DNA from: a phage
Reading direction: 5' to 3' (one strand)
Length of the DNA: 64,000 nt
Sequence record: PZ583741.1
How positions within the stretch are numbered: position 1 is the first letter of the stretch; the number at the start of each line of letters is the position of its first letter. Of the stretch, positions 49,498 through 64,000 are shown piece after piece. The notes beneath the pieces are model-generated. The model made no database searches. It had not been told where the DNA came from and saw nothing but the letters and a program-made list of their open reading frames with translations. Both the position numbers and the translations under genes were made by a program.

Positions 49498-49655
49498 TTA
49501 AGCTTGTTTATGTGGGTGAGAGTGATTATGTGGCGCTCATTCAGAGTGGTGATGTGTTCTTCGCAGAGATGAGTGATGATGGTAGTTTCTACATCGTAAA
49601 GAACAAGAATGGCGAAGATATCTACCTTTCAAAAGATGAGGTCATCATTTACTAA
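49494..49655 (+). CDS. small protein, paralog 2 (53 aa)
   Basis: MIKLVYVGESD...; tandem duplicate. Confidence 0.4.
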   Translation: MIKLVYVGESDYVALIQSGDVFFAEMSDDGSFYIVKNKNGEDIYLSKDEVIIY

Positions 49656-49780
49656 TGGATAACTACGAATCACCAGTAGAGTGGTGTAAGCGAATGCAGG
49701 ACGAAGCTAAAACTGGTGAAGAGGCGATGGCTTACTACGAACTGGCGCAAATTTGGATGGAACGTGAGAAGAAAGAATGA
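49655..49780 (+). CDS. small hypothetical protein (41 aa)
   Basis: manual ORF with overlapping start/stop. Confidence 0.3.
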   Translation: MDNYESPVEWCKRMQDEAKTGEEAMAYYELAQIWMEREKKE

Positions 49781-49920
49781 GCTTCACTGAATACGTTATC
49801 GCATGCGAGAGACTGGTCTTTGACATGAAGACTTTTCACTGGTTCATCATCAAGGATTTAATTAAGCCTTACAAGCAAGGCGTTACGCCAGAGGCTTTTG
49901 TTAAGTCATTCTACAAATAG
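49777..49920 (+). CDS. small hypothetical protein (47 aa)
   Basis: manual ORF; stop TAG inside next motif. Confidence 0.35.
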   Translation: MSFTEYVIACERLVFDMKTFHWFIIKDLIKPYKQGVTPEAFVKSFYK

Positions 49921-49960
49921 CACGAATTGCTAAACGCAGTCGCCATGGATGGCATATAAT
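49917..49960 (+). promoter_or_regulatory. B-module promoter cassette 6 (-10 TATAAT)
   Basis: motif plus consensus -10 at fixed spacing. Confidence 0.5.
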
Positions 49961-49993
49961 TACCACATCAACACAACGAAGAGAGATATAATA

Positions 49994-50140
49994 ATGAAAA
50001 ATGTATTTGGCATCAGCTATGAAGAAGAGTTTGTTGATTGCCTTATTTACCTGAATGAGATCTACGGAGATGAGTTTGAATGTGATGGTGATTCACTTCA
50101 TGCAAAAATAGAACTTGAAACATTTGGGGAGGTTGTCTAA
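49994..50140 (+). CDS. hypothetical protein (48 aa)
   Basis: ATG at 49994 in ORF 49949..50140. Confidence 0.4.
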   Translation: MKNVFGISYEEEFVDCLIYLNEIYGDEFECDGDSLHAKIELETFGEVV

Positions 50141-50382
50141 TGATGTTTGGATTATCAGAAGCACACTTCAACGCAGTTAAACGCCAGGCAGCAAAGTTGA
50201 ACGAAGAGTACAGCAAGTTATCGCCAAAACAGCGCAAGGACGATAAGCAGGTTGCGGCATTGATTTCAAAGATGTGGGAGCCAGTTTTCACAATCATTAG
50301 TCGAGACCGCTTTGTTTGGACCAGTGGGTATCTTAAGGGTAGAGTAGGTCACGACGAGAATGGGAATAGTCTTTATGAGTAA
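50140..50382 (+). CDS. hypothetical protein
   Basis: 80 aa, GGGAGG RBS. Confidence 0.5.
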   Translation: MMFGLSEAHFNAVKRQAAKLNEEYSKLSPKQRKDDKQVAALISKMWEPVFTIISRDRFVWTSGYLKGRVGHDENGNSLYE

Positions 50383-50557
50383 TTGCAATAAGCATAGGTA
50401 TAAGTACGCTTTCAGTTCAAAACTTACAGCCCACGACATAAAACTACTTAATCTAGGTTACTTCAAATCCAGCAAAAATGAAAATCATGTCGGGGATTAT
50501 AGATCATTTTATGAGTGCGTTAATTGCGGCGAGATGATTGCGATGGGGGTATTATGA
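50360..50557 (+). CDS. hypothetical protein (zinc-finger-like)
   Basis: 65-aa ORF; start uncertain (50360 or 50375). Confidence 0.35.
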   Translation: MGIVFMSNCNKHRYKYAFSSKLTAHDIKLLNLGYFKSSKNENHVGDYRSFYECVNCGEMIAMGVL

Positions 50558-50640
50558 GTGAGTTAACAATCTGGTTTATCGCAGGTCTGATTACTTGGGC
50601 TTACTTTTTAATCGTTTAGATTGAGCTTGTTAAAAAGAGC

Positions 50641-50669
50641 TTGCATCACTGACAGGAATTATCTAATAT
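50641..50669 (+). promoter_or_regulatory. sigma70-like promoter (TTGCAT - 17 bp - TAATAT) upstream of tRNA
   Basis: hexamers and spacing read from sequence. Confidence 0.4.
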
Positions 50670-50838
50670 TAACCACGTAGACAAACGAGGCCACCAGGTG
50701 GCAACGGCGCACGGAGCGCACTACACGGCAAGTCCGTAGCTCATTAAGTAGCGTATGCGGCATTAAGACCTAGCGCAAATAGGCAGATTAATCGGCTGTA
50801 TCAGGCAGCCCCGGAGCCGTAACCGGGACTCATTCAAA

Positions 50839-50916
50839 GCTCTGCTAGCTCAATTGGACAGAAGCAACGACCTTCTAAGTCGCAGGTTACTGGTTCGAAT
50901 CCAGTGCGGAGCGCCA
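50839..50916 (+). tRNA. tRNA-Arg (anticodon UCU), CCA encoded
   Basis: 7-bp acceptor stem, GG in D-loop, anticodon loop CUUCUAA, T-loop TTCGAAT, 3' GCCA. Confidence 0.75.
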
Positions 50917-50931
50917 ATAAAGGAGTTCATT

Positions 50932-51114
50932 ATGTGGGATGTGAAGTTGTCAATTCGCTTAATGGGCCGCTCGTGCAAGAATTGCACTCAAGAATACATC
51001 GCGTCAGTTGCCGCAATCAGCGCTGAGGATGCGGTAGCGAAAGTAAAGGAGATGTCAGGCGCTGACCCTGACACCCACAAATTCCTGGTAGCTTACGTTC
51101 GTGAGCAAAAGTAA
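50932..51114 (+). CDS. hypothetical protein (60 aa)
   Basis: AAGGAG RBS; track ORF 50854 overlaps the tRNA so start moved. Confidence 0.45.
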   Translation: MWDVKLSIRLMGRSCKNCTQEYIASVAAISAEDAVAKVKEMSGADPDTHKFLVAYVREQK

Positions 51115-51154
51115 AAAGTGTTATACCCTCGTTAAGTTTCGTTTCTCTCGTTGT

Positions 51155-51184
51155 TTTTAGCCCTCGCTTGAGGGCTTTTTTTCG
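51155..51184 (+). terminator. rho-independent terminator
   Basis: hairpin agccctcgcttgagggct plus T6. Confidence 0.6.
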
Positions 51185-51225
51185 TCTGCAATATGCTATA
51201 ATCTGGAATCAACAAAGGAGGATTT

Positions 51226-51732
51226 ATGAGCAAAGCAGCATTAAAGATGGGTGAGGGAAATTTCAAGGCGCTCTACAACAAGAAGTATGGCGACATTGCT
51301 ATGGTGGCAATCAACCGCAAGTACACGCCTGAGGAAGTTTTCGATTTCGCCGTTAGATACTTCTCCTGGGCTGAGAGCGAGGCAATTAAGGCTATTGAGA
51401 CGGCTGCTTTCCAGGGTGTGGTTAGCGAGAGCCTCGTACACAAGCCTAGAGTATTCACCTTAACTGGGCTGGCGCTCTTTATGGGTGTCAATATCAATAG
51501 ATTCGCTCGCTGGCGTACTGAGGCTGGATACTCTGATGTGATGGAATTCATTGATAACGTTATTTACGAGCAGAAGTACCAGCTTGGTGTCGCAGGCATC
51601 ATCAACTCTACCATCGTTGGTAAAGAGCTAGGAATTGATAAGCCGCAGGAGATTAAGATTAGCAACAACTCCACAGCTAACGATGTTGACAGTATGAAGG
51701 AAGCACTTGAGTCCGTGATCAGTAAGCTATAG
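51226..51732 (+). CDS. terminase small subunit
   Basis: 168 aa, HTH-like TLTGLALFMGVNINRFARW; AAGGAGG RBS; upstream of large terminase. Confidence 0.6.
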   Translation: MSKAALKMGEGNFKALYNKKYGDIAMVAINRKYTPEEVFDFAVRYFSWAESEAIKAIETAAFQGVVSESLVHKPRVFTLTGLALFMGVNINRFARWRTEAGYSDVMEFIDNVIYEQKYQLGVAGIINSTIVGKELGIDKPQEIKISNNSTANDVDSMKEALESVISKL

Positions 51733-51800
51733 CACTTATTGTTAAAAGAATGGGCCCAATCAATGAGATAATTGGGTCACTAACTTAACGAGGTGATGAT

Positions 51801-52313
51801 ATGAATTGGCATGATTATTTTGAATACAAAGATGGGAAGATTTACTGGAAAGATTACGATAGCGAGAAGCTTGGAAGGAGAAGGATACAGCGAAGATTCA
51901 TAGGGAAAGAGGTTGGCGGCATTGATAAAAGCCTAGGGTATGTTAGGGTAAACATGCCTGGTAAAAAATATTGGGTTCATAGAATAATCTGGGAAATGCA
52001 TAACGGAGCAATACCAGAAGGTATGCAAATTGACCATATAAATCATGTTAGAAATGATAACAGGATAGAAAACATTAGGTTAGTTACAATTCAGGAAAAT
52101 AGAAAGAATCAGTCAATAAATTCTAGGAATAAGACCGGGGTTACCGGAGTCTGCATAGTATCTAGGACTGGCAAGTATGTAGCTCAAATAAAAAAGGATG
52201 GAGAGAATATTCACTTGGGATTCTTTGATAATATTCACGACGCATCGATTGTCAGGGCGAGGGCTGAATTTATTCTTGGGTATCATAAAAACCACGGGAG
52301 GAAAGATGAGTGA
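51801..52313 (+). CDS. HNH homing endonuclease with AP2 domain, between terminase subunits
   Basis: HRIIWEMHNGAIPEGMQIDHINH...DNRIENIRLV; C-terminal GYHKNHG. Confidence 0.85.
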   Translation: MNWHDYFEYKDGKIYWKDYDSEKLGRRRIQRRFIGKEVGGIDKSLGYVRVNMPGKKYWVHRIIWEMHNGAIPEGMQIDHINHVRNDNRIENIRLVTIQENRKNQSINSRNKTGVTGVCIVSRTGKYVAQIKKDGENIHLGFFDNIHDASIVRARAEFILGYHKNHGRKDE

Positions 52314-53877
52314 TTTGATAGTTTGGGATGAGTTAAATCATGCGCAGAAGATGGCTATCAAGGCCATCTCTGAGCATAGTTTCGAGGGGTTCTTGCGGTG
52401 TTTCTTCCAGATAACTCAGGGCGAGAGATTCAAAATGAATTGGCATGCGAAGTACCTTTGCCGCGTCATTGATGAGATTCTTGAGGGTAAGAGAAAGGAT
52501 ACCATCATAAACGTATCTCCGGGATCTGCCAAAACCGAACTGTTTAGCATCCACTTCCCTGTATATAGCATGATTAAGATTAAGAAGGTTAGGAATCTTA
52601 GTTTGTCGTTCTCTGACTCATTGGTTAAGCGCAACTCCAAGCGCGTAAGGGATTTGATAAAATCAAAGGAGTTCCAGGAGCTTTGGCCCTGCACCTTTGG
52701 AACGTGCAGGGATGACGAGATTCAGGTTCTTGATGAGAATGGCAAAGTTAGGTTTGAGTCTATATCTAAGGCGATGGCTGGTCAGGTGACAGGAAGCAGG
52801 GGCGGCTACATGACTGACGATTATAGTGGTTGCATAATGCTGGATGACCCACTAAAGCCTGATGACGCGTTAAGTAATGTAAGAAGAGAGGCTGTCAATA
52901 TGCTTCTCAAGAACACAATCCGTTCACGTCGAGCTAGCTCAGTAAAGGGAAAAGAAACGCCAATACTTTCCGTGCAGCAAAGACTTCATGTTCTGGACAC
53001 TAGCCACTTCATGGAGTCAGGGCAAATGGGCATAAAGTTCGACGTAGTGAAAGTTCCAGCCATAGTCACAGAGGATTACGCCGACACGCTTCCTGATTGG
53101 ATCAAACAACAATTTATTGATGATGTTCTTTCATCACCATTTGTAGAGCGGGATGGAGTTAAGTATTACAGCTACTTTCCGGCAAAGGAGTCAATAGAAG
53201 ACCTGATGGCTATGTGGGATGCTGACCCGTACACGTTCCTTAGTCAGTACCAGCAGGAACCTGTAGCTCTGGGCGGCAATCTTATTAATGTGGATTGGTT
53301 CCAGCGCCTTAGTGATACATTCATACCTCCAGCCAAGTATGATTATCGATTCATCACATGCGATACCGCGATGACCACTAAAAGTTACAGCGACTTCTCT
53401 GTTCTTCAGTTGTGGGGCTATAAAGATGCTAAGATTTACCTTATTGATCAGCGCAGGGGTAAATGGGAGGCCCCAGAGTTGGAGGCTGAACTTCTGGACT
53501 TTGAGAAGAAATCAAGGGCAACCAGTCAGTCAGATGGTATCCTCAGAAAGATTATTATCGAGAAGAAAGCGTCTGGTATCGGCCTGATTCAATCAGCTGG
53601 CAGGGTTATGCGAACACCGATAGAGCCATACGTACCGGATAATGACAAGCTAACCAGGGTGATGAGTGCACTACCACAGATTAAGGCTGGTAACGTAGTT
53701 CTTCCAGAGTCATCGCCGTGGCTAAACGGATTGCTCACTGAGGTTGCGGCTTTTACGGCAGATGACTCGCATAAGCACGACGACCAAATTGACTGTCTAA
53801 CAATGGCGGTAAACCTTGTACTTAACATCGCTGATGATCCTAAGGCGAGACTGATGCGCATAGCGGGAATGAAATAG
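52306..53877 (+). CDS. terminase large subunit
   Basis: Walker A-like VSPGSAKTE; C-terminal nuclease Asp residues; overlaps HNH stop by 8 nt. Confidence 0.8.
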   Translation: MSDLIVWDELNHAQKMAIKAISEHSFEGFLRCFFQITQGERFKMNWHAKYLCRVIDEILEGKRKDTIINVSPGSAKTELFSIHFPVYSMIKIKKVRNLSLSFSDSLVKRNSKRVRDLIKSKEFQELWPCTFGTCRDDEIQVLDENGKVRFESISKAMAGQVTGSRGGYMTDDYSGCIMLDDPLKPDDALSNVRREAVNMLLKNTIRSRRASSVKGKETPILSVQQRLHVLDTSHFMESGQMGIKFDVVKVPAIVTEDYADTLPDWIKQQFIDDVLSSPFVERDGVKYYSYFPAKESIEDLMAMWDADPYTFLSQYQQEPVALGGNLINVDWFQRLSDTFIPPAKYDYRFITCDTAMTTKSYSDFSVLQLWGYKDAKIYLIDQRRGKWEAPELEAELLDFEKKSRATSQSDGILRKIIIEKKASGIGLIQSAGRVMRTPIEPYVPDNDKLTRVMSALPQIKAGNVVLPESSPWLNGLLTEVAAFTADDSHKHDDQIDCLTMAVNLVLNIADDPKARLMRIAGMK

Positions 53878-53917
53878 CACAAATTGCTAAACACTAAAGC
53901 CACGGATGGCGTATAGT
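53874..53917 (+). promoter_or_regulatory. B-module promoter cassette 7 (variant ATAGCACAAATTGCTAAA)
   Basis: terminase stop TAG is inside motif; TATAGT at fixed spacing. Confidence 0.45.
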
Positions 53918-53946
53918 TACTTCACACAAAAGAGAGGAGAAGAAAG

Positions 53947-54279
53947 ATGAAGGCAGTATTTAAAGGTTATAAAAAAGCTGGTCGTTTGGAATTTACTATT
54001 GGTAAGATTTATGAGTTATCAGAAACACGCGGAGTGGGTGGATATATGGTGGTGACTGATGACGGTGGCTTTCGGGCAATATTTATCCCAGACAACATCT
54101 ATGATTTCGAGGTGTTGATCCCAGATGAATTTATCGGTAAAGAAAAGCAATTCAAATATTACATCAATGGCGAAGCTGTTTCTAAAGTCAAGTTCGATGA
54201 TACACTGTTATGCGTCAAGGAATTTAAATCTGATGGCATTGATACATCATCAATCAAGTTCGAAGTAAAATTCGAGTAA
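53947..54279 (+). CDS. hypothetical protein
   Basis: 110 aa, GAGAGGAG RBS, own promoter and terminator. Confidence 0.5.
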   Translation: MKAVFKGYKKAGRLEFTIGKIYELSETRGVGGYMVVTDDGGFRAIFIPDNIYDFEVLIPDEFIGKEKQFKYYINGEAVSKVKFDDTLLCVKEFKSDGIDTSSIKFEVKFE

Positions 54280-54298
54280 CCACAAAAGCTATGATAAA

Positions 54299-54325
54299 CT
54301 AGCCCCTAAATGGGGCTTTTTTATT
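54299..54325 (+). terminator. rho-independent terminator
   Basis: hairpin agcccctaaatggggct plus T6. Confidence 0.6.
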
Positions 54326-54335
54326 GGAGAAAAAC

Positions 54336-55562
54336 ATGGTCAAGACAGACAGCTACGCCAATATCTTTCTAGGCGGCAGTGATGGTAGTGAGATTTACGG
54401 GAGCTTGCAGAACCAAGCGCCTACAATTCTGGCTTCGCTTTATGCGGATAATGCACTGGTGCGTCGAATTATCGACACAATCCCGGAGACGGCATTAGCG
54501 GCAGGATTCCACATTGACGGCATTGATGACGAGCCTGCATTCTGGTCTCGCTGGGACTATCTGGAGTTGACAAGGCACATCAACGAAGCGTGGTCGTGGG
54601 CTAGATTGTTCGGTGGAGCGGCAATTGTCGCTATCGTTAAGGACAACAGAGCTCTAACAAGCCCAGTCAGAGAAGGTTCTGAGCTTGAAACTGTTCGCGT
54701 ATACGACCGCACACAAGTAAAAGTCCAAACTCGAGAGGAGAATCCGCGCAACGCACGTTTTGGTAATCCACTAACCTATCGCATCACCACTAATGAGAGC
54801 GATATGTTTTACGATGTGCATTACAGCCGCATTCATATCATCGACGGAGAGCGAATCCCTAACGTAATGCGTCGGCAAAATGATGGCTGGGGCCGCAGCG
54901 TTCTCTCCAGTGATATTCTTGACTCAATCAAGGATTACACCAACTGCGAACGACTAGCGACTCAACTGCTCAAGCGTAAACAGCAAGCGGTCTGGAAAGT
55001 CAAGGACCTGGCATTGCTTTGTGATGATAGTGAAGGAGTTGGCGCGGCTCGTTTACGTCTCGCTCAAGTTGATAACAACAGCGGAGTTGGTCAGGCAATT
55101 GGCATTGATGCGGAATCGGAAGAATACAGCATTCTGAACTCTGATATTGGTGGGATTGATGCGTTCCTGGATAAGAAGTTCGACAGAATCGTTGCTCTGA
55201 GCGGCATCCATGAAATAATCCTGAAGAACAAGAACGTCGGCGGCTTATCATCAAGCCAGAATACAGCGCTTGAGACATTCCATAAGCTAGTCGATCGAAA
55301 GCGTAACGCTGAACTGCTGCCGATTCTCGGGTTCCTGATTCCGTTCATTTCAGACGAGCAAGAATGGTCAGTGGAGTTTAATCCTCTGGCTCAGGAATCA
55401 AGTAAAGATAAAGCGGAGACCCTTGAGAAGAACGTAAACAGTATAGCAACACTAATTGCAGCTGGCGCTATGGATACTAGCGAAGCGCGTGATACACTAC
55501 GAACTATCGCGCCAGAGATTAAGATTGGCGATGGCAATATCGAACCTAAAGAACCAGTCTAG
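54336..55562 (+). CDS. putative portal protein
   Basis: 408 aa; between large terminase and scaffold. Confidence 0.5.
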   Translation: MVKTDSYANIFLGGSDGSEIYGSLQNQAPTILASLYADNALVRRIIDTIPETALAAGFHIDGIDDEPAFWSRWDYLELTRHINEAWSWARLFGGAAIVAIVKDNRALTSPVREGSELETVRVYDRTQVKVQTREENPRNARFGNPLTYRITTNESDMFYDVHYSRIHIIDGERIPNVMRRQNDGWGRSVLSSDILDSIKDYTNCERLATQLLKRKQQAVWKVKDLALLCDDSEGVGAARLRLAQVDNNSGVGQAIGIDAESEEYSILNSDIGGIDAFLDKKFDRIVALSGIHEIILKNKNVGGLSSSQNTALETFHKLVDRKRNAELLPILGFLIPFISDEQEWSVEFNPLAQESSKDKAETLEKNVNSIATLIAAGAMDTSEARDTLRTIAPEIKIGDGNIEPKEPV

Positions 55563-55631
55563 GAAGCAATGGCGACGACAGAGGAACCTAATGAATGATG
55601 AATTTGATGGCTTTTAGTGAGGAGAATTGGG

Positions 55632-56717
55632 ATGTCTAAAGCCCGCTATGACAGTGTAAAGTTTAAAGCAACAATCGACGAGAATGGATTCTTAGTTGAC
55701 ACTCCGGTAGTCGCTCGTCTCGGCGTGCAAGTCTACTACATGGAAGATGGTCGAACGGTTCGAGAGTTTCGCCCGGCAGAGGAGGTTTTCAATGATGAAT
55801 CTCTGGCAAGCTACCAGGGTAAGCCAATGACTCTTGATCATGTTTTCGTTAACTCAGAGAACGCTAAAGAGGTAGTAGTCGGCTCAGTTGCTGGAAAGGC
55901 AGAGCCATTAGGCAGCTCCGTGGTTGCTCCAATTGTTATTTACGATAATGCCGCCATTCAGGAAGCTATGTCAGGTAACGCAAAGGAGTTATCCGTTGGA
56001 TACTCATCAGTCATTGATTACACCCCAGGTTGGGGTGACCCTGTTACTGGTGAGTACTTCCTTAAGTCTGAAAGTGAGCTATTCGACGTACCAGAAGGAT
56101 GGCAGGAGTTCGACGCAATTCAGCGTGACATTAAAGTGAACCATCTCGCAATGGTATATCGCGGTCGCGCAGGTATTGCCAAATTGAATATGGACGGTGA
56201 GCAGGAAAACCCGTATACTACTGACGTTGATATCAATAAAGAGGATAAACAGGAAATGATTAAGATTAAACTAGACGGCGCGCAGGAATTCGAAGTCGCC
56301 CCAGAAATCGCTTCTCACATCGAAGCGCTGAACGCAAAGGCTGACACTGCAATCGCAGAGCGCGACTCGCTGAAAGCTAAGGTAGATGCAATTCCAGCTG
56401 AAATCGAGAAAGCAGTAGCTAAAGCTAAAGCTGATGCCGATGCCCTAGCCGCTCTGGTTGCTGTTGCTGCTGAAGCTGGTGTTAAGGCTGACGGCCTGGA
56501 TGCTAAAGGCATTAAAGTTGCTTACGTTAAAGAAGTCTCCAGTCTTGATGTTTCCGAGAAGTCTGACGCTTACATCGACGCAGCGTTCGACATTGCCAAA
56601 GAATCTGATAAAATGGCTGAAGTACGTAAAGCGACTACCGCTTCCGACAAATCTGACAGCGCCGAAGAGCCTAAGAAATTAGACCCGCGTGCTCGTTTAG
56701 CTAAAATTAAGAAATAA
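55632..56717 (+). CDS. putative scaffolding protein / prohead protease
   Basis: GAGGAG RBS; Ala/Lys/Glu-rich coiled-coil C-terminus. Confidence 0.55.
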   Translation: MSKARYDSVKFKATIDENGFLVDTPVVARLGVQVYYMEDGRTVREFRPAEEVFNDESLASYQGKPMTLDHVFVNSENAKEVVVGSVAGKAEPLGSSVVAPIVIYDNAAIQEAMSGNAKELSVGYSSVIDYTPGWGDPVTGEYFLKSESELFDVPEGWQEFDAIQRDIKVNHLAMVYRGRAGIAKLNMDGEQENPYTTDVDINKEDKQEMIKIKLDGAQEFEVAPEIASHIEALNAKADTAIAERDSLKAKVDAIPAEIEKAVAKAKADADALAALVAVAAEAGVKADGLDAKGIKVAYVKEVSSLDVSEKSDAYIDAAFDIAKESDKMAEVRKATTASDKSDSAEEPKKLDPRARLAKIKK

Positions 56718-56729
56718 GGAGTTATAAAC

Positions 56730-57239
56730 ATGGCAATTCGTTCCGTAGCACTGGCTGGTATGGTTTCTGATACCTCTCTGTATAACATCGACGGCGCTTG
56801 CGTAGTTGGCGGCAGCGATGCAATTCCGGTTGGTACTGTTGTTGGTGTAACAGCCGCTCAGCCTATAGATGGTCACAAAGTTGTTGGCCTTCCAGCTGTA
56901 ACTGGCACGGCAGTTAAACCTTATGGTGTTGTTGTTAAATCTCATTACGAGACTCCAGATGGCACAGCTCGCGTAAATGAAGCAGTTAACGTAATGACTC
57001 ATGGTCGCATCTGGGTTCGCACCACTTTAGCAGCCGCGCCAGTTTTTGGTAGCAAGGTTTTCGTAAACGCAAGTGGTGTAGTTGTTGCTGAAGCGGCTAC
57101 TACTACTTGGGAAACTGGTTTTACATTTGCTGGCGGTTACATCGCAAACACTGGCACAGACCCACAAAACCTGAGCGTTGATGGTGCCCTAGTTGAGGTT
57201 CAGCTTATCCAATCCACGGACTCAACCGTTGCAGCATAA
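56730..57239 (+). CDS. putative head decoration protein
   Basis: 169 aa between scaffold and major capsid genes. Confidence 0.45.
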   Translation: MAIRSVALAGMVSDTSLYNIDGACVVGGSDAIPVGTVVGVTAAQPIDGHKVVGLPAVTGTAVKPYGVVVKSHYETPDGTARVNEAVNVMTHGRIWVRTTLAAAPVFGSKVFVNASGVVVAEAATTTWETGFTFAGGYIANTGTDPQNLSVDGALVEVQLIQSTDSTVAA

Positions 57240-57253
57240 TAGTTAAGACTAAA

Positions 57254-57280
57254 CTAACCCGCTTCGGCGGGTTTTTTATT
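57254..57280 (+). terminator. rho-independent terminator (UUCG loop)
   Basis: aacccgcttcggcgggtt plus T6. Confidence 0.6.
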
Positions 57281-57362
57281 GCCTATCATCTCATCATTGC
57301 GTGGTCTAAAAACTCGTGTATAATGAACACGTAGACACCTAACTGAAAAGGAACAATAAAGA

Positions 57363-58304
57363 ATGGCCATTAAATTTGATGCAGAACAAGCAAAAATCAC
57401 CGCTCATCTCGAGCAAATGGGCGTAGACAAAGCTGATGCCGCTGGTATCTGGACCGTTAAGCAACTGACCGCCAATCTGGCACGTGCTTACGAAAAAGAA
57501 TATCCAGACAACTCCGTTGTTAATATCTTCCCTGTAACCAATGAAATCCCAGGTCATGCGAAATATTTCGAATATCCAGAATTTGACGGCGTTGGCATTG
57601 CTCAGATTATCGCTGATTACTCTGACGACTTGCCGCTGGTTGATGCGTTTATGACAGAGAAACAAGGTAAAGTGTTCCGCTTCGGTAACGCGTTCCTGAT
57701 CTCTACTGATGAAATCAAAGCTGGCGCTGCTACTGGTCAATCGCTGTCATCTCGTAAGCAGGCGTTGGCATTCGAAGCGCACGATAACCTGTTGGATAAA
57801 CTGGTATGGTCCGGCTCTACACCGCACGGCATTCCTAGCGTATTCGACCATCCGAACATCAACAACGTTGTTGCTGGTACGTGGAACTCCGCAGCTGCCG
57901 CCATGACTGATATTACCGCACTTATTGATGCAATCGAGACTTCGACTAATGGCACTCACACCGCAACTGATATTCTGCTGCCTGCTTCCGCTCGCCGCTT
58001 GATGCAAGAGCTGGTTCCTAACACCTCTATCAGTTACGCGCAGCTGTTCGCCACCAACAACTCGGGTATCAATCTGCGTTACCTTCAGTTCCTGGATAAC
58101 TACGATGGCGCAGGCGGCAAAGCTGCTCTGGCTTTTGAGAAGGATGCATTAAATATGTCTATCGAGATCCCGGAGGCCACTAACGTACTTCCTGGTCAAA
58201 TGAAGGATTTACATATCAAGTACCCCGTAACCTCTAAGGCTACAGGTTTGATTTTATATCGTCCTCTGACGATGGCGGTAATGAAAGGCATTACCTACGA
58301 GTAA
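57363..58304 (+). CDS. major capsid protein
   Basis: 313 aa; own promoter and strong terminator. Confidence 0.65.
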   Translation: MAIKFDAEQAKITAHLEQMGVDKADAAGIWTVKQLTANLARAYEKEYPDNSVVNIFPVTNEIPGHAKYFEYPEFDGVGIAQIIADYSDDLPLVDAFMTEKQGKVFRFGNAFLISTDEIKAGAATGQSLSSRKQALAFEAHDNLLDKLVWSGSTPHGIPSVFDHPNINNVVAGTWNSAAAAMTDITALIDAIETSTNGTHTATDILLPASARRLMQELVPNTSISYAQLFATNNSGINLRYLQFLDNYDGAGGKAALAFEKDALNMSIEIPEATNVLPGQMKDLHIKYPVTSKATGLILYRPLTMAVMKGITYE

Positions 58305-58307
58305 TAA

Positions 58308-58333
58308 ATGGCCCTCTTCGGAGGGCTTTTTTA
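58308..58333 (+). terminator. rho-independent terminator (UUCG loop)
   Basis: gccctcttcggagggc plus T6. Confidence 0.6.
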
Positions 58334-58396
58334 CGTCTGTACCAAATGGAATTGTTGGGTTATAATCACTCAATCAGATAAACAAAGGAGACAAAA

Positions 58397-58642
58397 ATGA
58401 TTCGTTTAGAACACACTGGCGCTTGCCTTATCGTTTACAGTGGCGAGAAATATCTACCTGGTGACACTTTCGAGGTTGATGTAATTTGCGACGGACTAAA
58501 GCGTTTAATCGCAGAGGGCAAACTCACCATTGATGGTGATGCCAAAGCAACCAAACAGATTGCGCAGGAAGTTGTTAGCAAGAAAAAGCGCAAGGAACCG
58601 AAAACCATCTCCGAAGCTGAGACTGGCAACGAGTACAAATAA
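58397..58642 (+). CDS. hypothetical structural protein
   Basis: 81 aa, AAGGAG RBS. Confidence 0.45.
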   Translation: MIRLEHTGACLIVYSGEKYLPGDTFEVDVICDGLKRLIAEGKLTIDGDAKATKQIAQEVVSKKKRKEPKTISEAETGNEYK

Positions 58643-58683
58643 CAAACAGGGGGCTTAGGCCTCCTTTATTGTATGGAGCTAAT

Positions 58684-59085
58684 ATGAATGATGCAATTTT
58701 GGCGTTTATGCGCTCACTCGTTCCTGCGCTCAAGGCAGTGGATGACGAATCAATTAATGTATGGATTGATTTGGCACGTCTATACGTATGCGAAAGCAAG
58801 TTTGGCGCAGACAAAGATAAGGCAGTAGGACTTTACGCATTACACTTGATGCTTGCTGATGGCGCATTTAAGGGTGAGAATGAAGGATTGGAAACATACA
58901 GCCGTAGAATGGCAAGTTATGCACTGAGCGGTGAATTCTCTATCACCTACGATAACCAATCAGCAATCCAGGGTGATTTATCATCTTCCTCCTGGGGTCG
59001 TATGTACAAAGCACTGCTCCGCAAGAAAGGTGGCGGCTTTGGATTGATTACTTCCGCTGGTGGCGGTGGGTGCGGTTGCCGATGA
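58684..59085 (+). CDS. putative head-tail connector
   Basis: gene order. Confidence 0.4.
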   Translation: MNDAILAFMRSLVPALKAVDDESINVWIDLARLYVCESKFGADKDKAVGLYALHLMLADGAFKGENEGLETYSRRMASYALSGEFSITYDNQSAIQGDLSSSSWGRMYKALLRKKGGGFGLITSAGGGGCGCR

Positions 59086-59453
59086 ACTACAGCGAAATCG
59101 AATCAATCACTCGCTCTGGAATTAACTTCTTTAGTGATGCTAATGGTGTTTACGAGATGAGCACTGGCGCTGGATATGTTGAAATCGTTAACGGAGTTGA
59201 AGTAGAAGTGCCAGCGCAAACATTCCAGCTAAAAGGCTTAGTGCGAGAAATCAAGACGCGCGATATTGATGGTGAGTTTATCCAGTTTGGCGATAAGCGC
59301 GGAATCTTCACGGCTCAGGTGGAAATTAAGCAGGGTTATCAGATTAAAGTTGATGGTGAGACTTTTGTTGTCGTTGACCCGCGCCCAGTTAAACCGACTG
59401 GCACAGTTGTTGGGTATAGACCGATTCTTCGTAGGGTGGCTACTTATGGCTAG
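59082..59453 (+). CDS. putative head-tail joining protein
   Basis: ATGA overlap with upstream gene. Confidence 0.4.
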   Translation: MNYSEIESITRSGINFFSDANGVYEMSTGAGYVEIVNGVEVEVPAQTFQLKGLVREIKTRDIDGEFIQFGDKRGIFTAQVEIKQGYQIKVDGETFVVVDPRPVKPTGTVVGYRPILRRVATYG

Positions 59454-59883
59454 AAATATTGGAAGCGTTGCTACGTTTGAGAAATCTATTGCTGACTGGA
59501 TTGACAGAGCAGATAATGGATTTGAAATTGTAGTAGCTAATACAGTTACCAAGACAGCTAATGCAATTGTTGACCTTTCTCCTGTCGACACTGGTAGGTT
59601 CAAAGCTAACTGGCAAATCACCGCAAACTCACCAGCTCAGCAATCACTGAATGAGTACGATCAGACTGGTGGGCAGACAAAAACATATCTCGCCAGACAG
59701 GCTAGAGCTGTCGCCAACTCAAAAGCTACGAGTGTTATTTATATAACCAACCGACTTGATTACGCTGCTGGGCTTGAGTATGGGGCATCAAATCAGGCTC
59801 CAGCTGGCGTTTTGGGTGTTGTGCAAGCAAGGTTGGGCAGGTACTTCCAGGAAGCGGTAGAGGAGGCTCGTCGTGCAATATGA
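59446..59883 (+). CDS. putative HK97 gp10-like head-tail connector
   Basis: SPVDTGRFKANW motif. Confidence 0.45.
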   Translation: MARNIGSVATFEKSIADWIDRADNGFEIVVANTVTKTANAIVDLSPVDTGRFKANWQITANSPAQQSLNEYDQTGGQTKTYLARQARAVANSKATSVIYITNRLDYAAGLEYGASNQAPAGVLGVVQARLGRYFQEAVEEARRAI

Positions 59884-60274
59884 ATTATCATTAGCAGCAA
59901 GGAAATTCGTCAACGATTTGTTGGTAAATGAATTTCCGGTCAGGTATCCAGTTGCGTGGGAGAACGCTAAGTTTACTCCTCCTGTCGATGGCTCAATCTG
60001 GCTTAAGTACGACTACACGGAAGTTGACACCGTAACTTACGGATTAAGCAGGAAGTGCAAATACTACGTAGGCATGGTGCAGATTTCAGTATTCTTCAGT
60101 CCTGGTACTGGAATTGATAAGCCGAGACGTATTGCTAATCAATTGGCAGAATCTATCGTTGATGGTACAATGCTTGACAGCGGGACCATTTATGAGTCTG
60201 GAGTTGTTAACCCCGTTATCAAATCCAAGTCTGGGTGGTTTATCCCGGTTCGTTTTTATGTTCGTCTAGACTAA
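59873..60274 (+). CDS. putative tail completion protein (GTG start)
   Basis: AGGAGG RBS 6 nt before GTG. Confidence 0.4.
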   Translation: MQYELSLAARKFVNDLLVNEFPVRYPVAWENAKFTPPVDGSIWLKYDYTEVDTVTYGLSRKCKYYVGMVQISVFFSPGTGIDKPRRIANQLAESIVDGTMLDSGTIYESGVVNPVIKSKSGWFIPVRFYVRLD

Positions 60275-60289
60275 CAAAAGGAAAAATAC

Positions 60290-60946
60290 ATGGCTCATTT
60301 ATCAAACGGCACCCAGGTGTTCGTAGAAGGCTCTCGCGGAACTGCAATTGACGTAACAGCAATTTCTAACGCAGTTACACCTGTTTTAACTGTATCTGAC
60401 GCATCAGGCTTGGTTGTTGGTGATTACCTGCTTTTCACCTCCTCTGCTTCGACGCTTCTGGCTGACAAGCAGGTTCGCGTAACTGCAATCTCTGGCACGT
60501 CAGTAACTGTTGAAGGTATTGATACATCCAGCACTACCAAGTTCCCAGCTGGTTTAACTGGTGAAGTTGTTAAGATCACTTCATGGTTCGAAGTTCCTTG
60601 TGTTCAGGATGTATCTACTGATGGTGGCGAACAGCAATTCGTTAACTTCCAGTGTCTTTCTGATGACCGTGAACAGCAGATTCCTACTTATAAGTCTGCG
60701 GTAACGAACACCTTCACCTTCGCTCACGAGTACACCAACCCGGTCTATCCGGTTCTGCGTAACTACGATGAGTCAGGTCAGGTTGTTGCAATTCGCCTGT
60801 TCGTACCTCGCGCTCAGGAAATGCGCTTGCAGTCCGGCACTATCGCTTTCAACGACACCCCTACCATTGGTGTTAACGAAATCGAAACGGTATCCATCGC
60901 AGTATCCATTCGTGGTCGCCTGTCCTCTGTGGCAGCTGAAGTTTAA
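60290..60946 (+). CDS. major tail (tube) protein
   Basis: 218 aa, AAGGAA RBS, upstream of chaperone pair and tape measure. Confidence 0.6.
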   Translation: MAHLSNGTQVFVEGSRGTAIDVTAISNAVTPVLTVSDASGLVVGDYLLFTSSASTLLADKQVRVTAISGTSVTVEGIDTSSTTKFPAGLTGEVVKITSWFEVPCVQDVSTDGGEQQFVNFQCLSDDREQQIPTYKSAVTNTFTFAHEYTNPVYPVLRNYDESGQVVAIRLFVPRAQEMRLQSGTIAFNDTPTIGVNEIETVSIAVSIRGRLSSVAAEV

Positions 60947-60949
60947 AGC

Positions 60950-60977
60950 ATAAACCCTCTTCGGAGGGTTTTTTATT
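60950..60977 (+). terminator. rho-independent terminator (UUCG loop)
   Basis: aaccctcttcggagggtt plus T5. Confidence 0.6.
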
Positions 60978-61029
60978 GCTACCAACCTGCTATAATGCAA
61001 TCTCACAAACAATAAGAGGATTAACTAAG

Positions 61030-61344
61030 ATGGCAAAGTTCAAACTTTCACTGGCGGCACTCCCAGACTTTAAGCTACCAGTAAAATTTAAGCTGGCTAA
61101 CGACCAGGATGTAGAGGTTATCTTTACAGTCAAGCACAAGAAAACATCAGAGCTTCAGGTGTTACTACAGAAAGAAGACCTGAGTACTAAAGAATTGATT
61201 ATGGCAATCGCCTCTGATTGGGACTTGGAAGAGGAATATAACGAGGATAACGTTAATGAGTTCTCTGACCTGTTCCCAGCTTCAACCGTTGCCCTTACTA
61301 CCGCTTATATGCAAGCGCTTGCTGGTCAGCGAGTAAAAAACTAA
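61030..61344 (+). CDS. tail assembly chaperone (G-like)
   Basis: 104 aa directly before tape measure; AGAGGA RBS. Confidence 0.55.
   Translation: MAKFKLSLAALPDFKLPVKFKLANDQDVEVIFTVKHKKTSELQVLLQKEDLSTKELIMAIASDWDLEEEYNEDNVNEFSDLFPASTVALTTAYMQALAGQRVKN
61335..61341 (+). promoter_or_regulatory. -1 programmed frameshift slippery heptamer A_AAA_AAC
   Basis: X_XXY_YYZ in zero frame, 1 codon before the stop. Confidence 0.5.
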
Positions 61345-61664
61345 AACGAGCGGTGTATCTACAGTACCAGTCAGAGCCAACTGATGCCGAACTGGAAGCT
61401 ATTGGGATGCGCCGCTCTGATTACGAAGACGAAGAGCCTGAGGTTTTGCACTTTGACGACAACATGATGAAGGCGTGGGACATTTATTGCTCAATGGCTA
61501 CGCAGTGGAGAGTCGGAGCTAACGGAGCTACAGGCCTAGATTACAACGTGCTAAACTTCCTCTTTAGAGTGTATAATGTTTCTGAAGAAGAATTGGTACT
61601 CAGCGATTTACGCATCCTTGAAGCTAAGGCTCTTGAGATGATGGATAACCTGAGAAAAAAATAA
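61338..61664 (+). CDS. tail assembly chaperone extension (GT-like, reached by -1 frameshift)
   Basis: -1 frame ORF open from slip site to 61664, no ATG of its own. Confidence 0.45.
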   Translation, partial: KLKRAVYLQYQSEPTDAELEAIGMRRSDYEDEEPEVLHFDDNMMKAWDIYCSMATQWRVGANGATGLDYNVLNFLFRVYNVSEEELVLSDLRILEAKALEMMDNLRKK

Positions 61665-61688
61665 CCCGCTTCGGCGGGTTTTCTATTA
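61661..61688 (+). terminator. terminator/attenuator hairpin (same sequence as 57256..57273)
   Basis: aacccgcttcggcgggtt followed by ttctatt. Confidence 0.4.
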
Positions 61689-61699
61689 TGGAGGCTTAG

Positions 61700-64000
61700 A
61701 TGGCAACAAATGAATTAGCCGGAATCACACTAGCCGTAGACGTCTCGCAGGTAGACAGGGGAACGCAATCCCTACAAAAGTTCAGACAGGCCAACCAACA
61801 GGCTGCATCTGGGATTAGTGAGTTCGTCAATGCTGAGCAGGTTGCTAAAAACCAGGCTAGAGATACCGCTCGCGCACTTGCTGAGCAACAGGCATCTTTA
61901 GCTAAATTGCAAACAGCTATTGACCCAACTGCGGCAAAATTCCGCAAGCTGCAGGAGGCTGCTGTAGGTCTTGATAAGGCGTTCGCTGCTGGAGTGGTTC
62001 CCGATGAGGAGTTTTTCCGCTTAGGCGAGGCACTTGAAACGCAGAATGCAAAACTTGCTCGTTCACGTGCGGCGCTAACTGAAGAGGGTAGAGCAGCTGC
62101 TCAGGCTGCAAAAGATAAAGCAAAAGCAAAGGCTGAAGCGGATAGATTTATCGCATCACTTGAGCGTCAGGCTCAGGCGGCAACATTGACGCGTGAGGAG
62201 TACCTAAAGTTACAAGCGGCCCAGCTTGGAGTAAGTTCTCAGGCAGCGCCTATTATTGACAGAATCGCCGATGCATCACAGAAGGCAAACACCCAGCTAA
62301 TTGCTCAGAGCAAGGCTTTTCAACGATCTGGCTTAAGCGCTGGTCAATACAAGAACGCAATTTCTCAGCTGCCAGCGCAGATTACTGATATTGGCACGTC
62401 GCTTGCTGGCGGCATTCCTATTTGGCTTATTGCAATTCAGCAAGGTGGGCAGATCAAGGATTCATTTGGCGGTATTGGTAACACCTTTAGATTCGCGCTT
62501 GCAGCCTTAAACCCATTTAATGTAGCTGTTGGTGTTTTGGGTGGCGCACTTATTGCTCTTGGTGTTGGTGCAGCTCAGGCTGAAAGTGAATTCAGAGCAT
62601 TAAACTCCGCAATTGCTTTCTCCAACAACTCTACAATCGCATCAATCTCACAGGTTAGAGAGTTGGTTAGCTCTGTTTATGATGCAACAGGTGCTACCAG
62701 AGGACTTGTGACTAGCATCGCAACAAGCCTTATTGAGCAAGGGAACCTTACGCTGACGCAGATTGACAAGATTACTAAATCGACCGCAAGATGGGCGCAG
62801 TTGACAGGTAAGGATGCGAAGGAGATTACTGGTTACTATAACCAGATTGCAAGCGACCCAATCCAGGGTTTAGTTGATTTGGATAAGCGCTTTAACTTCC
62901 TCACACAGGGGCAGTTGACGACAATCGAAAACCTGAGAAAGACAAAGGGAGAAGTTGAGGCCGTTACTGCTGCGATTGATATTTTCAGCAAGTCTCAGGA
63001 AGCCAACCTTAACGACATAGCTGCGCAGTTAACTCCGCTTGAGCTAGCCTGGAATGATTTCAGAAAGTACATCTCTGATATCTGGGATGCAATTAGTCGT
63101 AGAACTGTCGGGGCGCTGAACCTATTTGTTGACGTAATCGCCGGAACGATTGAACAGATCAGGGTATTCATTAACCAGGGTGATGTTCTGATTGGTGAAT
63201 TCGTAATTAGCGCAACTCAGGCATTGCAGAACATTCCTGGTCTTGATGGCGTTGGTGATGATGTTATCAAGGGGCAGCAGAAGATTATCGATGCCGCCAA
63301 GAAGCAAAACCTTGAGCTAGAGAAGTCTATCAAGGAGCGAGATGCCAGAATCAGAGAGGGAGAGCTTGGTTACGTTACTCGCAGAGAAAATCAGAATACA
63401 AATGAGCAATCAGGGACAGATGAGGAATTTGCAAAAAGGAAGAAGGCGCTTCAGGATGAGCTTGATGCGATCAAGAAGAACAGGAAAGAAGAAAATAGTA
63501 GGGTTAAGGAGCAAAGAGATTTAACAATTGGTTATGAATCTGGCGTTCTGGCGCTTCAGGCTCAACTCAAGGTGCTTCAGGAAAACAGGGATATTGGCGC
63601 AGTAATAAGCAATGAGCGCAAGCAGTATCTTCATGAGGAGGCCAAATTCAGGATTCTTGAGCAGAGACAACTTGATGGCTCAATTACCAAAGAGCAAGCA
63701 AGACTTCTCATTGAAAAGGATAAAGTTCTTGAGTTAGCCAGACAGAAGGCTGAGCTAGGTGATCAGATTGCTTTGCAGGAGCGAGCTAATAAGTTAGCTG
63801 AAGATAACCGCAAGAAGATTCTTCAGATTAACAATGAGGCAAGTAACATTGATTTGGGTGCTGGTTTATCATCTCGCGAGCAGCAGAGAGCCAAAGAGAT
63901 TCAGGCTCTTCAATCCAATCAGGTTAATGCTGGTGGTTCTGTTGATGATGTTGATTTTCAGCAACTTCTCGAAGCAAGACGTAACTTTTATGCTCAGGAG
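61700..64000 (+). CDS. tail tape measure protein (3' end beyond window)
   Basis: open frame from ATG 61700 to window end; coiled-coil; hydrophobic Gly/Ala-rich segment. Confidence 0.8.
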   Translation, partial: MATNELAGITLAVDVSQVDRGTQSLQKFRQANQQAASGISEFVNAEQVAKNQARDTARALAEQQASLAKLQTAIDPTAAKFRKLQEAAVGLDKAFAAGVVPDEEFFRLGEALETQNAKLARSRAALTEEGRAAAQAAKDKAKAKAEADRFIASLERQAQAATLTREEYLKLQAAQLGVSSQAAPIIDRIADASQKANTQLIAQSKAFQRSGLSAGQYKNAISQLPAQITDIGTSLAGGIPIWLIAIQQGGQIKDSFGGIGNTFRFALAALNPFNVAVGVLGGALIALGVGAAQAESEFRALNSAIAFSNNSTIASISQVRELVSSVYDATGATRGLVTSIATSLIEQGNLTLTQIDKITKSTARWAQLTGKDAKEITGYYNQIASDPIQGLVDLDKRFNFLTQGQLTTIENLRKTKGEVEAVTAAIDIFSKSQEANLNDIAAQLTPLELAWNDFRKYISDIWDAISRRTVGALNLFVDVIAGTIEQIRVFINQGDVLIGEFVISATQALQNIPGLDGVGDDVIKGQQKIIDAAKKQNLELEKSIKERDARIREGELGYVTRRENQNTNEQSGTDEEFAKRKKALQDELDAIKKNRKEENSRVKEQRDLTIGYESGVLALQAQLKVLQENRDIGAVISNERKQYLHEEAKFRILEQRQLDGSITKEQARLLIEKDKVLELARQKAELGDQIALQERANKLAEDNRKKILQINNEASNIDLGAGLSSREQQRAKEIQALQSNQVNAGGSVDDVDFQQLLEARRNFYAQE

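What the first reader, a model, noticed from the sequence alone, without database searches (positions are those of the whole stretch)
61030..61664. Programmed -1 frameshift site in the module B tail chaperone pair
The G-like ORF ends ...GTA AAA AAC TAA. The heptamer A_AAA_AAC (61335..61341) is a canonical slippery site, and a -1 shift opens directly into the 61353..61664 frame, which has no ATG of its own and ends just before the tape measure start.
Basis: partly seen in the sequence, partly recalled or inferred. Interest (0 to 1): 0.4.

Follow-up and report, generated by a model that had tools for sequence, protein, structure and literature searches.

The report
Tail chaperone G/GT frameshift site
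This is the well-known programmed -1 ribosomal frameshift that lets a T1-like phage make a short and a long tail-assembly chaperone from one gene pair; it is real but ordinary, and a close relative already carries the same annotation.

Summary
G (61030-61344, 104 aa, Pfam Phage_TAC_4) ends GTA AAA AAC TAA. A_AAA_AAC (61335-61341) is the only in-register slippery heptamer in G. A -1 shift there reads into the DUF1799 frame, which ends at 61664, giving a 211-aa GT fusion. The pair lies between the major tail gene and the tape measure gene of an Rtp-like Drexlerviridae genome.

Comparative evidence supports the frameshift. All 36 protein-retrieved relatives, down to 28% identity, keep a slippery Lys-codon site in the last three sense codons of G, with T in the -1 frame. 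The GTG at 61353 exists only in the window's own clade. The T-frame peptide LKRAV is conserved upstream of that GTG.

New here is a strong hairpin (61348-61417, -34.3 kcal/mol) starting 6 nt after the heptamer. It is the second most stable local fold in the window. It is far more stable than 1000 synonymous recodings of the same peptide (z -4.4). Covariation evidence is lacking.

The feature is already known: GenBank PQ659294.1 (92% identical) annotates the joined frameshift product, and genome announcements for several T1-like phages mention it. No experiment on this clade was found. Interest is low.

The parts
60290..60946 (+). Major tail (tube) protein gene, upstream neighbour
   Evidence: Pfam Phage_tail_3 3.6e-68; PHROG 584 major tail protein 9e-87
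60952..60971 (+). Terminator-like hairpin with a T-rich tail, between the major tail gene and G
   Evidence: Terminator scan; T1's record annotates a rho-independent terminator at the same place
61030..61344 (+). G-like tail assembly chaperone ORF, 104 aa, zero frame
   Evidence: Pfam PF08748 Phage_TAC_4, 111.4 bits against a cutoff of 21.1, full length; translation
61335..61341 (+). Slippery heptamer A_AAA_AAC, followed directly by the G stop TAA at 61342-61344
   Evidence: Only in-register XXXYYYZ in G. Conserved in Rtp-like, T1-like, Tempevirinae, Dhillonvirus and Variovorax phage relatives
61341..61664 (+). T segment read in the -1 frame (first codon CTA at 61341-61343, stop TAA at 61662-61664), 107 aa; DUF1799 domain
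   Evidence: Pfam PF08809, 59 bits against a cutoff of 26; PHROG 17368 positions 109-210. The peptide LKRAVYL is conserved starting from the codon that overlaps the G stop
61030..61664 (+). Predicted GT fusion product, 211 aa (61030-61341 joined to 61341-61664)
   Evidence: PHROG 17368 (213 positions) covers both halves. The orthologous join is annotated in PQ659294.1
61348..61417 (+). Candidate frameshift-stimulating hairpin. Outer stem 61348-61360 with 61405-61417 (13 bp); inner helices 61362-61366 with 61400-61404 and 61367-61371 with 61391-61395. A 6-nt spacer separates it from the heptamer
   Evidence: -34.3 kcal/mol, z -5.72 against dinucleotide shuffles. Only 3 of 12785 windows on the + strand are as stable. 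z -4.36, 0 of 1000 against synonymous recodings. Pair probability 0.99 in contexts up to 311 nt. Kept in all 10 distinct sequences of the clade
61353..61355 (+). GTG, the only candidate independent start for T; it lies inside the 5' arm of the hairpin
   Evidence: Present only in the Rtp-like clade (10 of 56 distinct junctions); elsewhere the codon is GTT, GTC, GTA, GCG or TCC. The nearest GAG is only 2 nt upstream
61663..61680 (+). Terminator-like hairpin between T and the tape measure gene
   Evidence: Terminator scan; T1 annotates a terminator at the same place
61700..64000 (+). Tape measure protein gene, 5' part; it runs off the window
   Evidence: Open for 766 codons; Pfam TMP_2 3.7e-49; PHROG 24 2e-149

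Best explanation
Most ribosomes translating G decode ...GTA AAA AAC and terminate at TAA 61342-61344, giving the 104-aa chaperone G. A minority slip one base back on A_AAA_AAC. This happens either by tandem re-pairing of the P-site Lys and A-site Asn tRNAs, or by slippage of the P-site Asn tRNA while the stop codon occupies the A site; both routes give the same protein. Those ribosomes then read CTA AAA CGA GCG GTG... to the TAA at 61662-61664 and make the 211-aa GT fusion (...QRVKN-LKRAVYLQ...).

The 70-nt hairpin that begins 6 nt after the heptamer probably pauses the ribosome and raises the slip rate on a heptamer that is weak in E. coli. It also buries the GTG at 61353 and the ATG at 61407.

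By analogy with lambda, many copies of G and a few of GT would coat the tape measure protein. The T (DUF1799) domain would recruit the major tail protein, and neither chaperone would end up in the virion.

Shown here: the sequence anatomy, family membership, conservation of the arrangement, and the thermodynamic exceptionality of the hairpin. Inferred: that the shift occurs, its rate, the hairpin's stimulatory role, and the roles of G and T in assembly.
For: - Anatomy.
- Gene order and families: G is Phage_TAC_4, T is DUF1799, flanked by Phage_tail_3 and TMP_2. PHROG 17368 spans both halves.
- Conservation: all 28 loci retrieved by protein from viral contigs and all 8 hand-picked distant phage records keep a slippery Lys-codon site in the last three sense codons of G, before its stop. 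In 35 of the 36, T reads in the -1 frame of G; L031 has indels inside G but keeps the same junction. The sites are A_AAA_AAC (T1, Rtp-like, Tempevirinae, Dhillonvirus at 28-30% identity, Variovorax phage), G_GGA_AAC (Pseudomonas phage), A_AAG (Eastlansingvirus) and A_AAA_G (Webervirus).
- In Dhillonvirus the -1 frame opens exactly at the heptamer and has no start codon for about 70 codons.
- GTG 61353 is confined to the window's clade. The peptide L-K-R-A-V upstream of it is kept through synonymous Arg changes CGA/AGG/CGC/CGG.
- Gene callers left T uncalled or truncated in T1, tiwna, slyngel, rolling, Sf12, VAC8 and R656.
- PQ659294.1 annotates the join.
- The literature describes this frameshift for T1-like phages (PMC4319613, PMC6763657, PMC8407766).
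- Hairpin. It meets all four criteria of Sharma et al. 2014 for a stimulatory hairpin. The same paper reports A_AA.A_AA.C and G_GG.A_AA.C as low-efficiency heptamers in E. coli that are nonetheless used for programmed frameshifting (PMC4066793).
Against: - No experimental evidence for a GT product in this phage or its clade was found.
- A_AAA_AAC is a poor shifter in E. coli (PMC4066793), so the rate may be very low.
- The hairpin has no covariation support. Its arms are almost invariant in the clade, with two one-sided changes that keep pairing. The short hairpin of the T1-type clades shows no significant covariation. Third-position variability in paired sites (4 of 17) against unpaired sites (35 of 89) is not significant.
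- L015 has A_AAA_AAC without a stable hairpin, so a hairpin is not obligatory.
- The window's clade does have a GTG 8 nt after the G stop, so some reinitiation cannot be excluded.
Confidence: 0.85

Rival explanations
1. T is made as a free 103-aa protein by independent initiation, or by termination-reinitiation, at GTG 61353, 8 nt after the G stop. No frameshift is needed.
For: GTG is present in all 10 distinct Rtp-like sequences. Many depositors annotate T this way. The OzMSK record's note says the frameshifted product 'also has independent RBS'. The short distance from the G stop would suit translational coupling.
Against: The codon is GTT, GTC, GTA, GCG or TCC in the other 46 distinct junctions, while the -1 arrangement and the slippery site persist. 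The T-frame peptide is conserved upstream of the GTG. The only purine-rich element (GAG, 61348-61350) is 2 nt from the GTG, too close for a Shine-Dalgarno sequence. The GTG sits in a stem with pair probability 0.99. In Dhillonvirus no start codon exists for about 70 codons.
Confidence: 0.08
2. The fusion arises by transcriptional slippage: RNA polymerase adds one A in the A6 run, and normal translation of that mRNA gives GT with the junction ...VKK-LKR....
For: A homopolymeric A6 run is present. One deposited relative differs in run length (A5 in MN840485.1), which shows the run is error-prone for polymerases or sequencers.
Against: Relatives keep the -1 arrangement with runs too short for polymerase slippage: GCA AAG GTC, GCA AAA GTT and CTG GGA AAC. 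From general knowledge rather than a test here, efficient slippage by E. coli RNA polymerase needs runs of about 8-9 or more. The downstream RNA hairpin at ribosomal spacing fits a translational mechanism.
Confidence: 0.04
3. The downstream frame is not expressed, or the two-ORF layout is a sequencing error in a single gene.
For: None beyond the absence of experimental data.
Against: The T frame matches Pfam DUF1799 above threshold and PHROGs 17368 and 680. It is conserved as protein in 1136 phage records. The same frame offset is seen in more than 50 independently sequenced genomes.
Confidence: 0.01

Closest known systems
Phage lambda G/GT tail assembly chaperone frameshift (Levin et al. 1993; Xu et al. 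2004, 2013, 2014; reviewed in PMC5009743)
   Same: The position between the major tail gene and the tape measure gene. A short ORF followed by a -1 ORF. An in-register XXXYYYZ heptamer with a Lys codon near the end of G (lambda G_GGA_AAG, verified). The expected products are abundant G and rare GT.
   Different: There is no detectable sequence relationship. Lambda is Phage_TAC_2 plus Phage_tail_T; this locus is Phage_TAC_4 plus DUF1799. The heptamer ends in AAC (weak in E. coli) rather than AAG. The G stop follows the heptamer directly, whereas lambda has 5 further codons. A very stable hairpin follows after 6 nt.
Escherichia phage vB_ecoS_OzMSK (PQ659294.1), CDS XLM52745.1 'tape measure chaperone', joined from two pieces
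   Same: It is the orthologous locus at 91.7% nucleotide identity, with the same GTA AAA AAC TAA junction and the same hairpin (-32.7 kcal/mol).
   Different: It has a ~315-bp insert carrying an extra 249-nt ORF upstream of G. The base of the hairpin reads GAGGGCGG instead of ACGAGCGG.
Phage T1 gp40/gp39 (ST40/ST39, NC_005833) and T1-like phages Stevie, Skenny and Solomon
   Same: Homologous G and T (about 51-58% identity), the same A_AAA_AAC TAA site and the same gene order. The frameshift is noted in PMC4319613, PMC6763657 and PMC8407766.
   Different: T1 has a short 11-bp GGCGGUU...AACCGCC hairpin (-15.9 kcal/mol) instead of the long one. It has GTT in place of the GTG. The T1 RefSeq record still lacks the join.
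IS-element and dnaX -1 frameshift signals in E. coli (Sharma et al. 2014, PMC4066793)
   Same: A heptamer followed by a hairpin that starts 4-10 nt downstream. A_AAA_AAC is reported there as used by IS elements despite its low intrinsic efficiency.
   Different: The biological product differs: a chaperone pair rather than a transposase or a polymerase subunit. No upstream Shine-Dalgarno-like stimulator is present here.

Membership tests
Conserved tail-assembly-chaperone -1 frameshift of long-tailed dsDNA phages (G/GT class, Xu et al. 2004) | The two ORFs lie between the major tail protein gene and the tape measure gene | tested here: met
   60290-60946 is Phage_tail_3 and 61700 onward is TMP_2
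Conserved tail-assembly-chaperone -1 frameshift of long-tailed dsDNA phages (G/GT class, Xu et al. 2004) | The second ORF overlaps the first in the -1 frame and lacks a conserved start of its own | tested here: met
   GTG 61353 occurs in only 10 of 56 distinct junctions
Conserved tail-assembly-chaperone -1 frameshift of long-tailed dsDNA phages (G/GT class, Xu et al. 2004) | An in-register slippery sequence lies within the overlap | tested here: met
   A_AAA_AAC at 61335-61341 is unique in G; 0.07 are expected by chance
Conserved tail-assembly-chaperone -1 frameshift of long-tailed dsDNA phages (G/GT class, Xu et al. 2004) | The arrangement is conserved among diverged relatives | tested here: met
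   36 protein-retrieved loci at 28-98% identity
Conserved tail-assembly-chaperone -1 frameshift of long-tailed dsDNA phages (G/GT class, Xu et al. 2004) | Two products, G and GT, are made at a fixed ratio; both are needed for tail assembly and absent from virions | not testable with these tools
   This needs infected-cell proteomics and genetics. No such data for this clade were found
Pfam PF08748 Phage_TAC_4 | Score above the gathering threshold over the full domain | tested here: met
   111.4 bits against 21.1; residues 1-104 match profile positions 1-124
Pfam PF08809 DUF1799 | Score above the gathering threshold | tested here: met
   59.0 bits against 26; T residues 21-101 match profile positions 1-80
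Lambda G and T sequence families (PF06894 Phage_TAC_2, PF06223 Phage_tail_T) | Detectable sequence or profile similarity | tested here: not met
   The Pfam scan assigns different families. The best BLASTP E-value is 0.12. hhalign probability is 0.8%
-1 PRF stimulatory hairpin (criteria of Sharma et al. 2014, PMC4066793) | A hairpin of 17-140 nt that starts 4-10 nt after the motif, has a G-C first pair followed by at least 3 pairs, and has an unfolding energy of at least 7.6 kcal/mol | tested here: met
   70 nt; 6-nt spacer; G61348-C61417 followed by A-U, G-C and C-G; 32.9-34.3 kcal/mol
-1 PRF stimulatory hairpin (criteria of Sharma et al. 2014, PMC4066793) | The structure is selected beyond the coding constraint | tested here: met
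   z -4.36, 0 of 1000 synonymous recodings as stable
-1 PRF stimulatory hairpin (criteria of Sharma et al. 2014, PMC4066793) | Compensatory base changes across relatives | tested here: inconclusive
   The arms are nearly invariant in the clade, with only A-U to G-U type changes. The short hairpin of the T1-type clades has 1 compensatory change, not significant
-1 PRF stimulatory hairpin (criteria of Sharma et al. 2014, PMC4066793) | Raises frameshift frequency in a reporter | not testable with these tools
   Needs an experiment
Any Rfam family | A match at the gathering score | tested here: not met
   Only three chance-level matches between 60900 and 61750, none at the hairpin

The most novel reading that the evidence does not exclude
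The -34 kcal/mol hairpin has two roles. It boosts -1 slippage on a heptamer that is intrinsically weak in E. coli, and it sequesters the GTG at 61353 and the ATG at 61407 so that no free T domain is made. Drexlerviridae clades would then have swapped between 'weak A_AAA_AAC plus hairpin' (a long or a short version) and 'strong A_AAG without hairpin' to hold the G:GT ratio constant. This would give a natural allelic series for studying how the frameshift rate is tuned.
Probability: 0.35. Interest if true: 0.3.

Novelty: already known. Interest (0 to 1): 0.15.

Why it matters
Practically, it matters for annotation. Most deposited relatives, including the T1 reference record, call T as a separate or truncated gene or miss it altogether, so the 211-aa GT product is usually absent from protein databases. 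Biologically, it adds nothing new to the G/GT paradigm. The one modest addition is a well-supported candidate stimulatory hairpin. Its apparent trade-off with slippery-site strength across Drexlerviridae clades could be tested cheaply with reporters.

Tried and rejected
- A search of the 5.8-billion-protein set with the fusion sequence returned a single DUF1799 hit and was uninformative.
- A PDB sequence search found nothing.
- Remote homology between DUF1799 and lambda T was suggested by a 12-residue BLASTP fragment but rejected by hhalign at probability 0.8%.
- A formal covariation test on the short T1-type hairpin gave no support. Both arms encode conserved residues (R-A-V and K-P-P), so that alignment cannot separate structure from coding.
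- Third-position variability inside and outside the stems of the window's hairpin did not differ significantly with only 10 distinct sequences.
- No upstream Shine-Dalgarno-like stimulator was found.
- No Rfam family matched.
- A strict rule that 'a weak heptamer always has a hairpin' fails: L015 has A_AAA_AAC without a stable fold.
- The recoding z-scores for the GC-rich Pseudomonas and Variovorax phages are not trustworthy, because the codon-usage model came from this coliphage.
- Loci L040-L069 were fetched with a DNA pattern that contains the heptamer, so they cannot be used to estimate how often the heptamer is conserved.
- Structure prediction was not run. It would not change the verdict.

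Full report
**Observation**

G starts at ATG 61030 and ends ...CAG CGA GTA AAA AAC TAA, with the stop at 61342-61344 (104 aa). AAAAAAC occupies 61335-61341 in the register A_AAA_AAC. It is the only in-register XXXYYYZ heptamer in G.

The -1 frame is open from 61269 to the TAA at 61662-61664. Slipping back one base at the heptamer continues CTA AAA CGA GCG GTG... and gives a 211-aa fusion. The tape measure ATG is at 61700, and that ORF stays open for 766 codons to the end of the window.

The downstream frame has a GTG at 61353 and internal ATGs from 61407 onward, so it is not free of start codons. The listed ORF simply begins at that GTG.

Chance is an unlikely explanation. In-register heptamers occur at 0.0029 per codon in the window's ORFs, so 0.07 are expected in a 25-codon overlap. 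This is the only one in a genuine gene that opens into a long -1 frame.

**Context**

The window is two unrelated phage genomes abutted near 47,404-47,406.
- Positions 1 to about 47,406 match an HC6/VSt472/seszw-like siphovirus.
- Positions from about 47,404 to 64,000 match an Rtp-like member of the Drexlerviridae, the T1-like coliphages. Its best match is vB_Ec-G8 at 95.8%.

G is a full-length Pfam Phage_TAC_4 domain (111 bits). The T segment is DUF1799 (59 bits). PHROG 17368, a 213-position profile, matches G over its positions 1-107 and T over 109-210, so fused products are already represented in that family.

**Comparative test**

tblastn with the fusion finds 1136 phage records, and the match is split into two frames in every full-length hit listed. 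I read the junction in 28 loci retrieved by protein similarity from viral contigs and in 8 hand-picked distant phage records.

All 36 keep a slippery Lys-codon site in the last three sense codons of G, before its stop. In 35 of them T reads in the -1 frame of G; L031 has indels inside G but keeps the same junction.

| Clade | Junction |
|---|---|
| Rtp-like, T1, Tempevirinae, Dhillonvirus (28-30% identity), Variovorax phage | A_AAA_AAC + stop |
| Pseudomonas phage R656 | G_GGA_AAC TGA |
| Eastlansingvirus and AHP24-like | GCA AAG GTC TAA |
| Webervirus | GCA AAA GTT TAA |

In Dhillonvirus the -1 frame opens exactly at the heptamer and has no start codon for about 70 codons.

The codon aligned with GTG 61353 is GTG only in the 10 distinct Rtp-like sequences. 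It is GTT, GTC, GTA, GCG or TCC in the other 46. That count includes 30 loci fetched with a pattern containing the heptamer, which are valid for this question but not for heptamer frequency.

The T-frame peptide L-K-R-A-V-Y-L is conserved from the codon that overlaps the G stop. Its Arg codon changes synonymously (CGA, AGG, CGC, CGG). This shows purifying selection on translation upstream of any possible start.

Gene callers illustrate the problem. T is uncalled in tiwna, slyngel and rolling. It is truncated to an internal ATG in T1 (ST39), Sf12, VAC8 and R656.

One record, MN840485.1, has A5 instead of A6, which puts T in the +1 frame. This is probably a homopolymer sequencing error.

**Downstream structure**

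The 79 nt from the G stop fold into a hairpin spanning 61348-61417. It has a 13-bp outer stem and two 5-bp helices.

- Stability: -34.3 kcal/mol, z = -5.72 against dinucleotide shuffles, with none of 200 as stable.
- Spacing: the stem starts 6 nt after the heptamer.
- Rank: it is the second most stable 79-nt fold on the + strand of the whole window; 3 of 12,785 sliding windows are as stable.
- Context: the outer stem keeps pair probability 0.99 when up to 311 nt are folded.
- Coding control: I held the T-frame peptide fixed and resampled synonymous codons from this phage's usage. The native fold is 16 kcal/mol more stable than the mean recoding (z = -4.36, 0 of 1000).
- Clade conservation: all 10 distinct sequences of the clade keep the hairpin, at -31.6 to -35.1 kcal/mol.
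- Published criteria: it satisfies the four hairpin criteria of Sharma et al. 2014. That paper also reports that A_AA.A_AA.C and G_GG.A_AA.C are inefficient heptamers in E. coli yet are used for programmed frameshifting (PMC4066793).

Other clades have a different, shorter hairpin 5-7 nt after the site. In the recoding control T1 scores z = -3.85, Dhillonvirus -3.07, tiwna -2.3 and Webervirus -2.0. The A_AAG clade, which encodes nearly the same peptide as the window, has none (Sf12, z = +1.24).

Limits of this evidence:
- Covariation is absent or untestable.
- L015 has A_AAA_AAC without a stable fold.
- The recoding scores for the GC-rich phages are unreliable.

The hairpin is therefore a strong candidate stimulator, not a demonstrated one. 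It also buries GTG 61353 and ATG 61407. No upstream Shine-Dalgarno-like stimulator exists, and no Rfam family matches.

**Mechanism**

The best explanation (confidence 0.85) is programmed -1 ribosomal frameshifting at A_AAA_AAC. It would yield abundant G and rare GT, helped by the hairpin and perhaps by the adjacent stop codon. By analogy with lambda, G and the G part of GT bind the tape measure protein, the T domain recruits the major tail protein, and neither is present in virions (PMC5009743).

Rivals:
- Free T made from GTG 61353 by coupling or reinitiation (0.08). It may coexist with frameshifting in this clade, but it cannot explain the family-wide pattern.
- Transcriptional slippage in the A6 run (0.04). 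Relatives with A3-A4 or G3A3 sites contradict it.
- No expression, or a sequencing error (0.01).

The junction peptide distinguishes these: VKN-L for ribosomal slippage, VKK-L for transcriptional slippage, and MYLQ for initiation at the GTG.

**Comparison with what is known**

Functionally this is the lambda G/GT arrangement. I verified the lambda site G_GGA_AAG, in register and five codons before the G stop.

It is not a sequence relative of the lambda pair. Lambda GT is Phage_TAC_2 plus Phage_tail_T, there is no significant BLASTP match, and hhalign gives probability 0.8%.

The same frameshift is already annotated as a joined CDS in the 92%-identical phage OzMSK. It is also mentioned for the T1-like phages Stevie, Skenny and Solomon and for the Dhillonvirus-like phage eiAU. 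I found no experimental demonstration for this clade.

**Verdict**

The finding is correct and its interpretation is supported. It is an already known feature, so interest is low (0.15). The useful by-products are a concrete candidate stimulatory hairpin, a slippery-site and hairpin pattern across clades that could be tested with reporters, and the observation that most database records, including the T1 reference, still mis-annotate T.

Noticed in passing
window 47404-47406: The window is two unrelated phage genomes abutted. Positions 1 to about 47406 match HC6/VSt472/seszw-like siphoviruses at about 90%. Positions from about 47404 to 64000 match Rtp-like Drexlerviridae (vB_Ec-G8, 95.8%). The nature of the junction (concatenated dataset, chimeric assembly or genome ends) was not examined.
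   Followed up: partly
window 60947-61029; L001 1053-1354; L003 1068-1316: Most Rtp-like relatives carry a roughly 315-bp insert with a 249-nt hypothetical ORF between the major tail gene and G. The window, like phage SU57, lacks it and has only a terminator-like hairpin there.
   Followed up: partly
L002 (MN840485.1, phage 2725-N35) 1100-1160: The slippery run is A5 instead of A6, so the annotated G runs 13 codons further and T lies in the +1 frame. This is probably a homopolymer sequencing error in the deposited record.
   Followed up: partly
L070 (NC_005833, phage T1) 1501-2135: The T1 reference record has no joined GT product. ST39 is called from an internal ATG, which leaves about 150 nt of conserved T-frame coding sequence unannotated. 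tiwna, slyngel and rolling have no T gene called at all.
   Followed up: yes
window 60952-60971 and 61663-61680: Terminator-like GC hairpins with T-rich tails flank the G-T pair, at the same places as the rho-independent terminators annotated in T1. They may step expression down from the major tail protein to the chaperones to the tape measure protein.
   Followed up: partly
L012-L014, L016, L017, L034 (Eastlansingvirus/AHP24-like); L015: This clade replaces A_AAA_AAC with GCA AAG GTC (an A_AAG tetramer) and has no stable downstream fold, although it encodes nearly the same peptide. Its relative L015 keeps A_AAA_AAC but also lacks a stable fold.
   Followed up: partly
window ~9566, ~29751, ~36366 (+ strand): Other 79-nt segments fold about as stably as the frameshift hairpin (-34.7, -34.1 and -33.5 kcal/mol). 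All lie in the other phage genome and were not examined.
   Followed up: no
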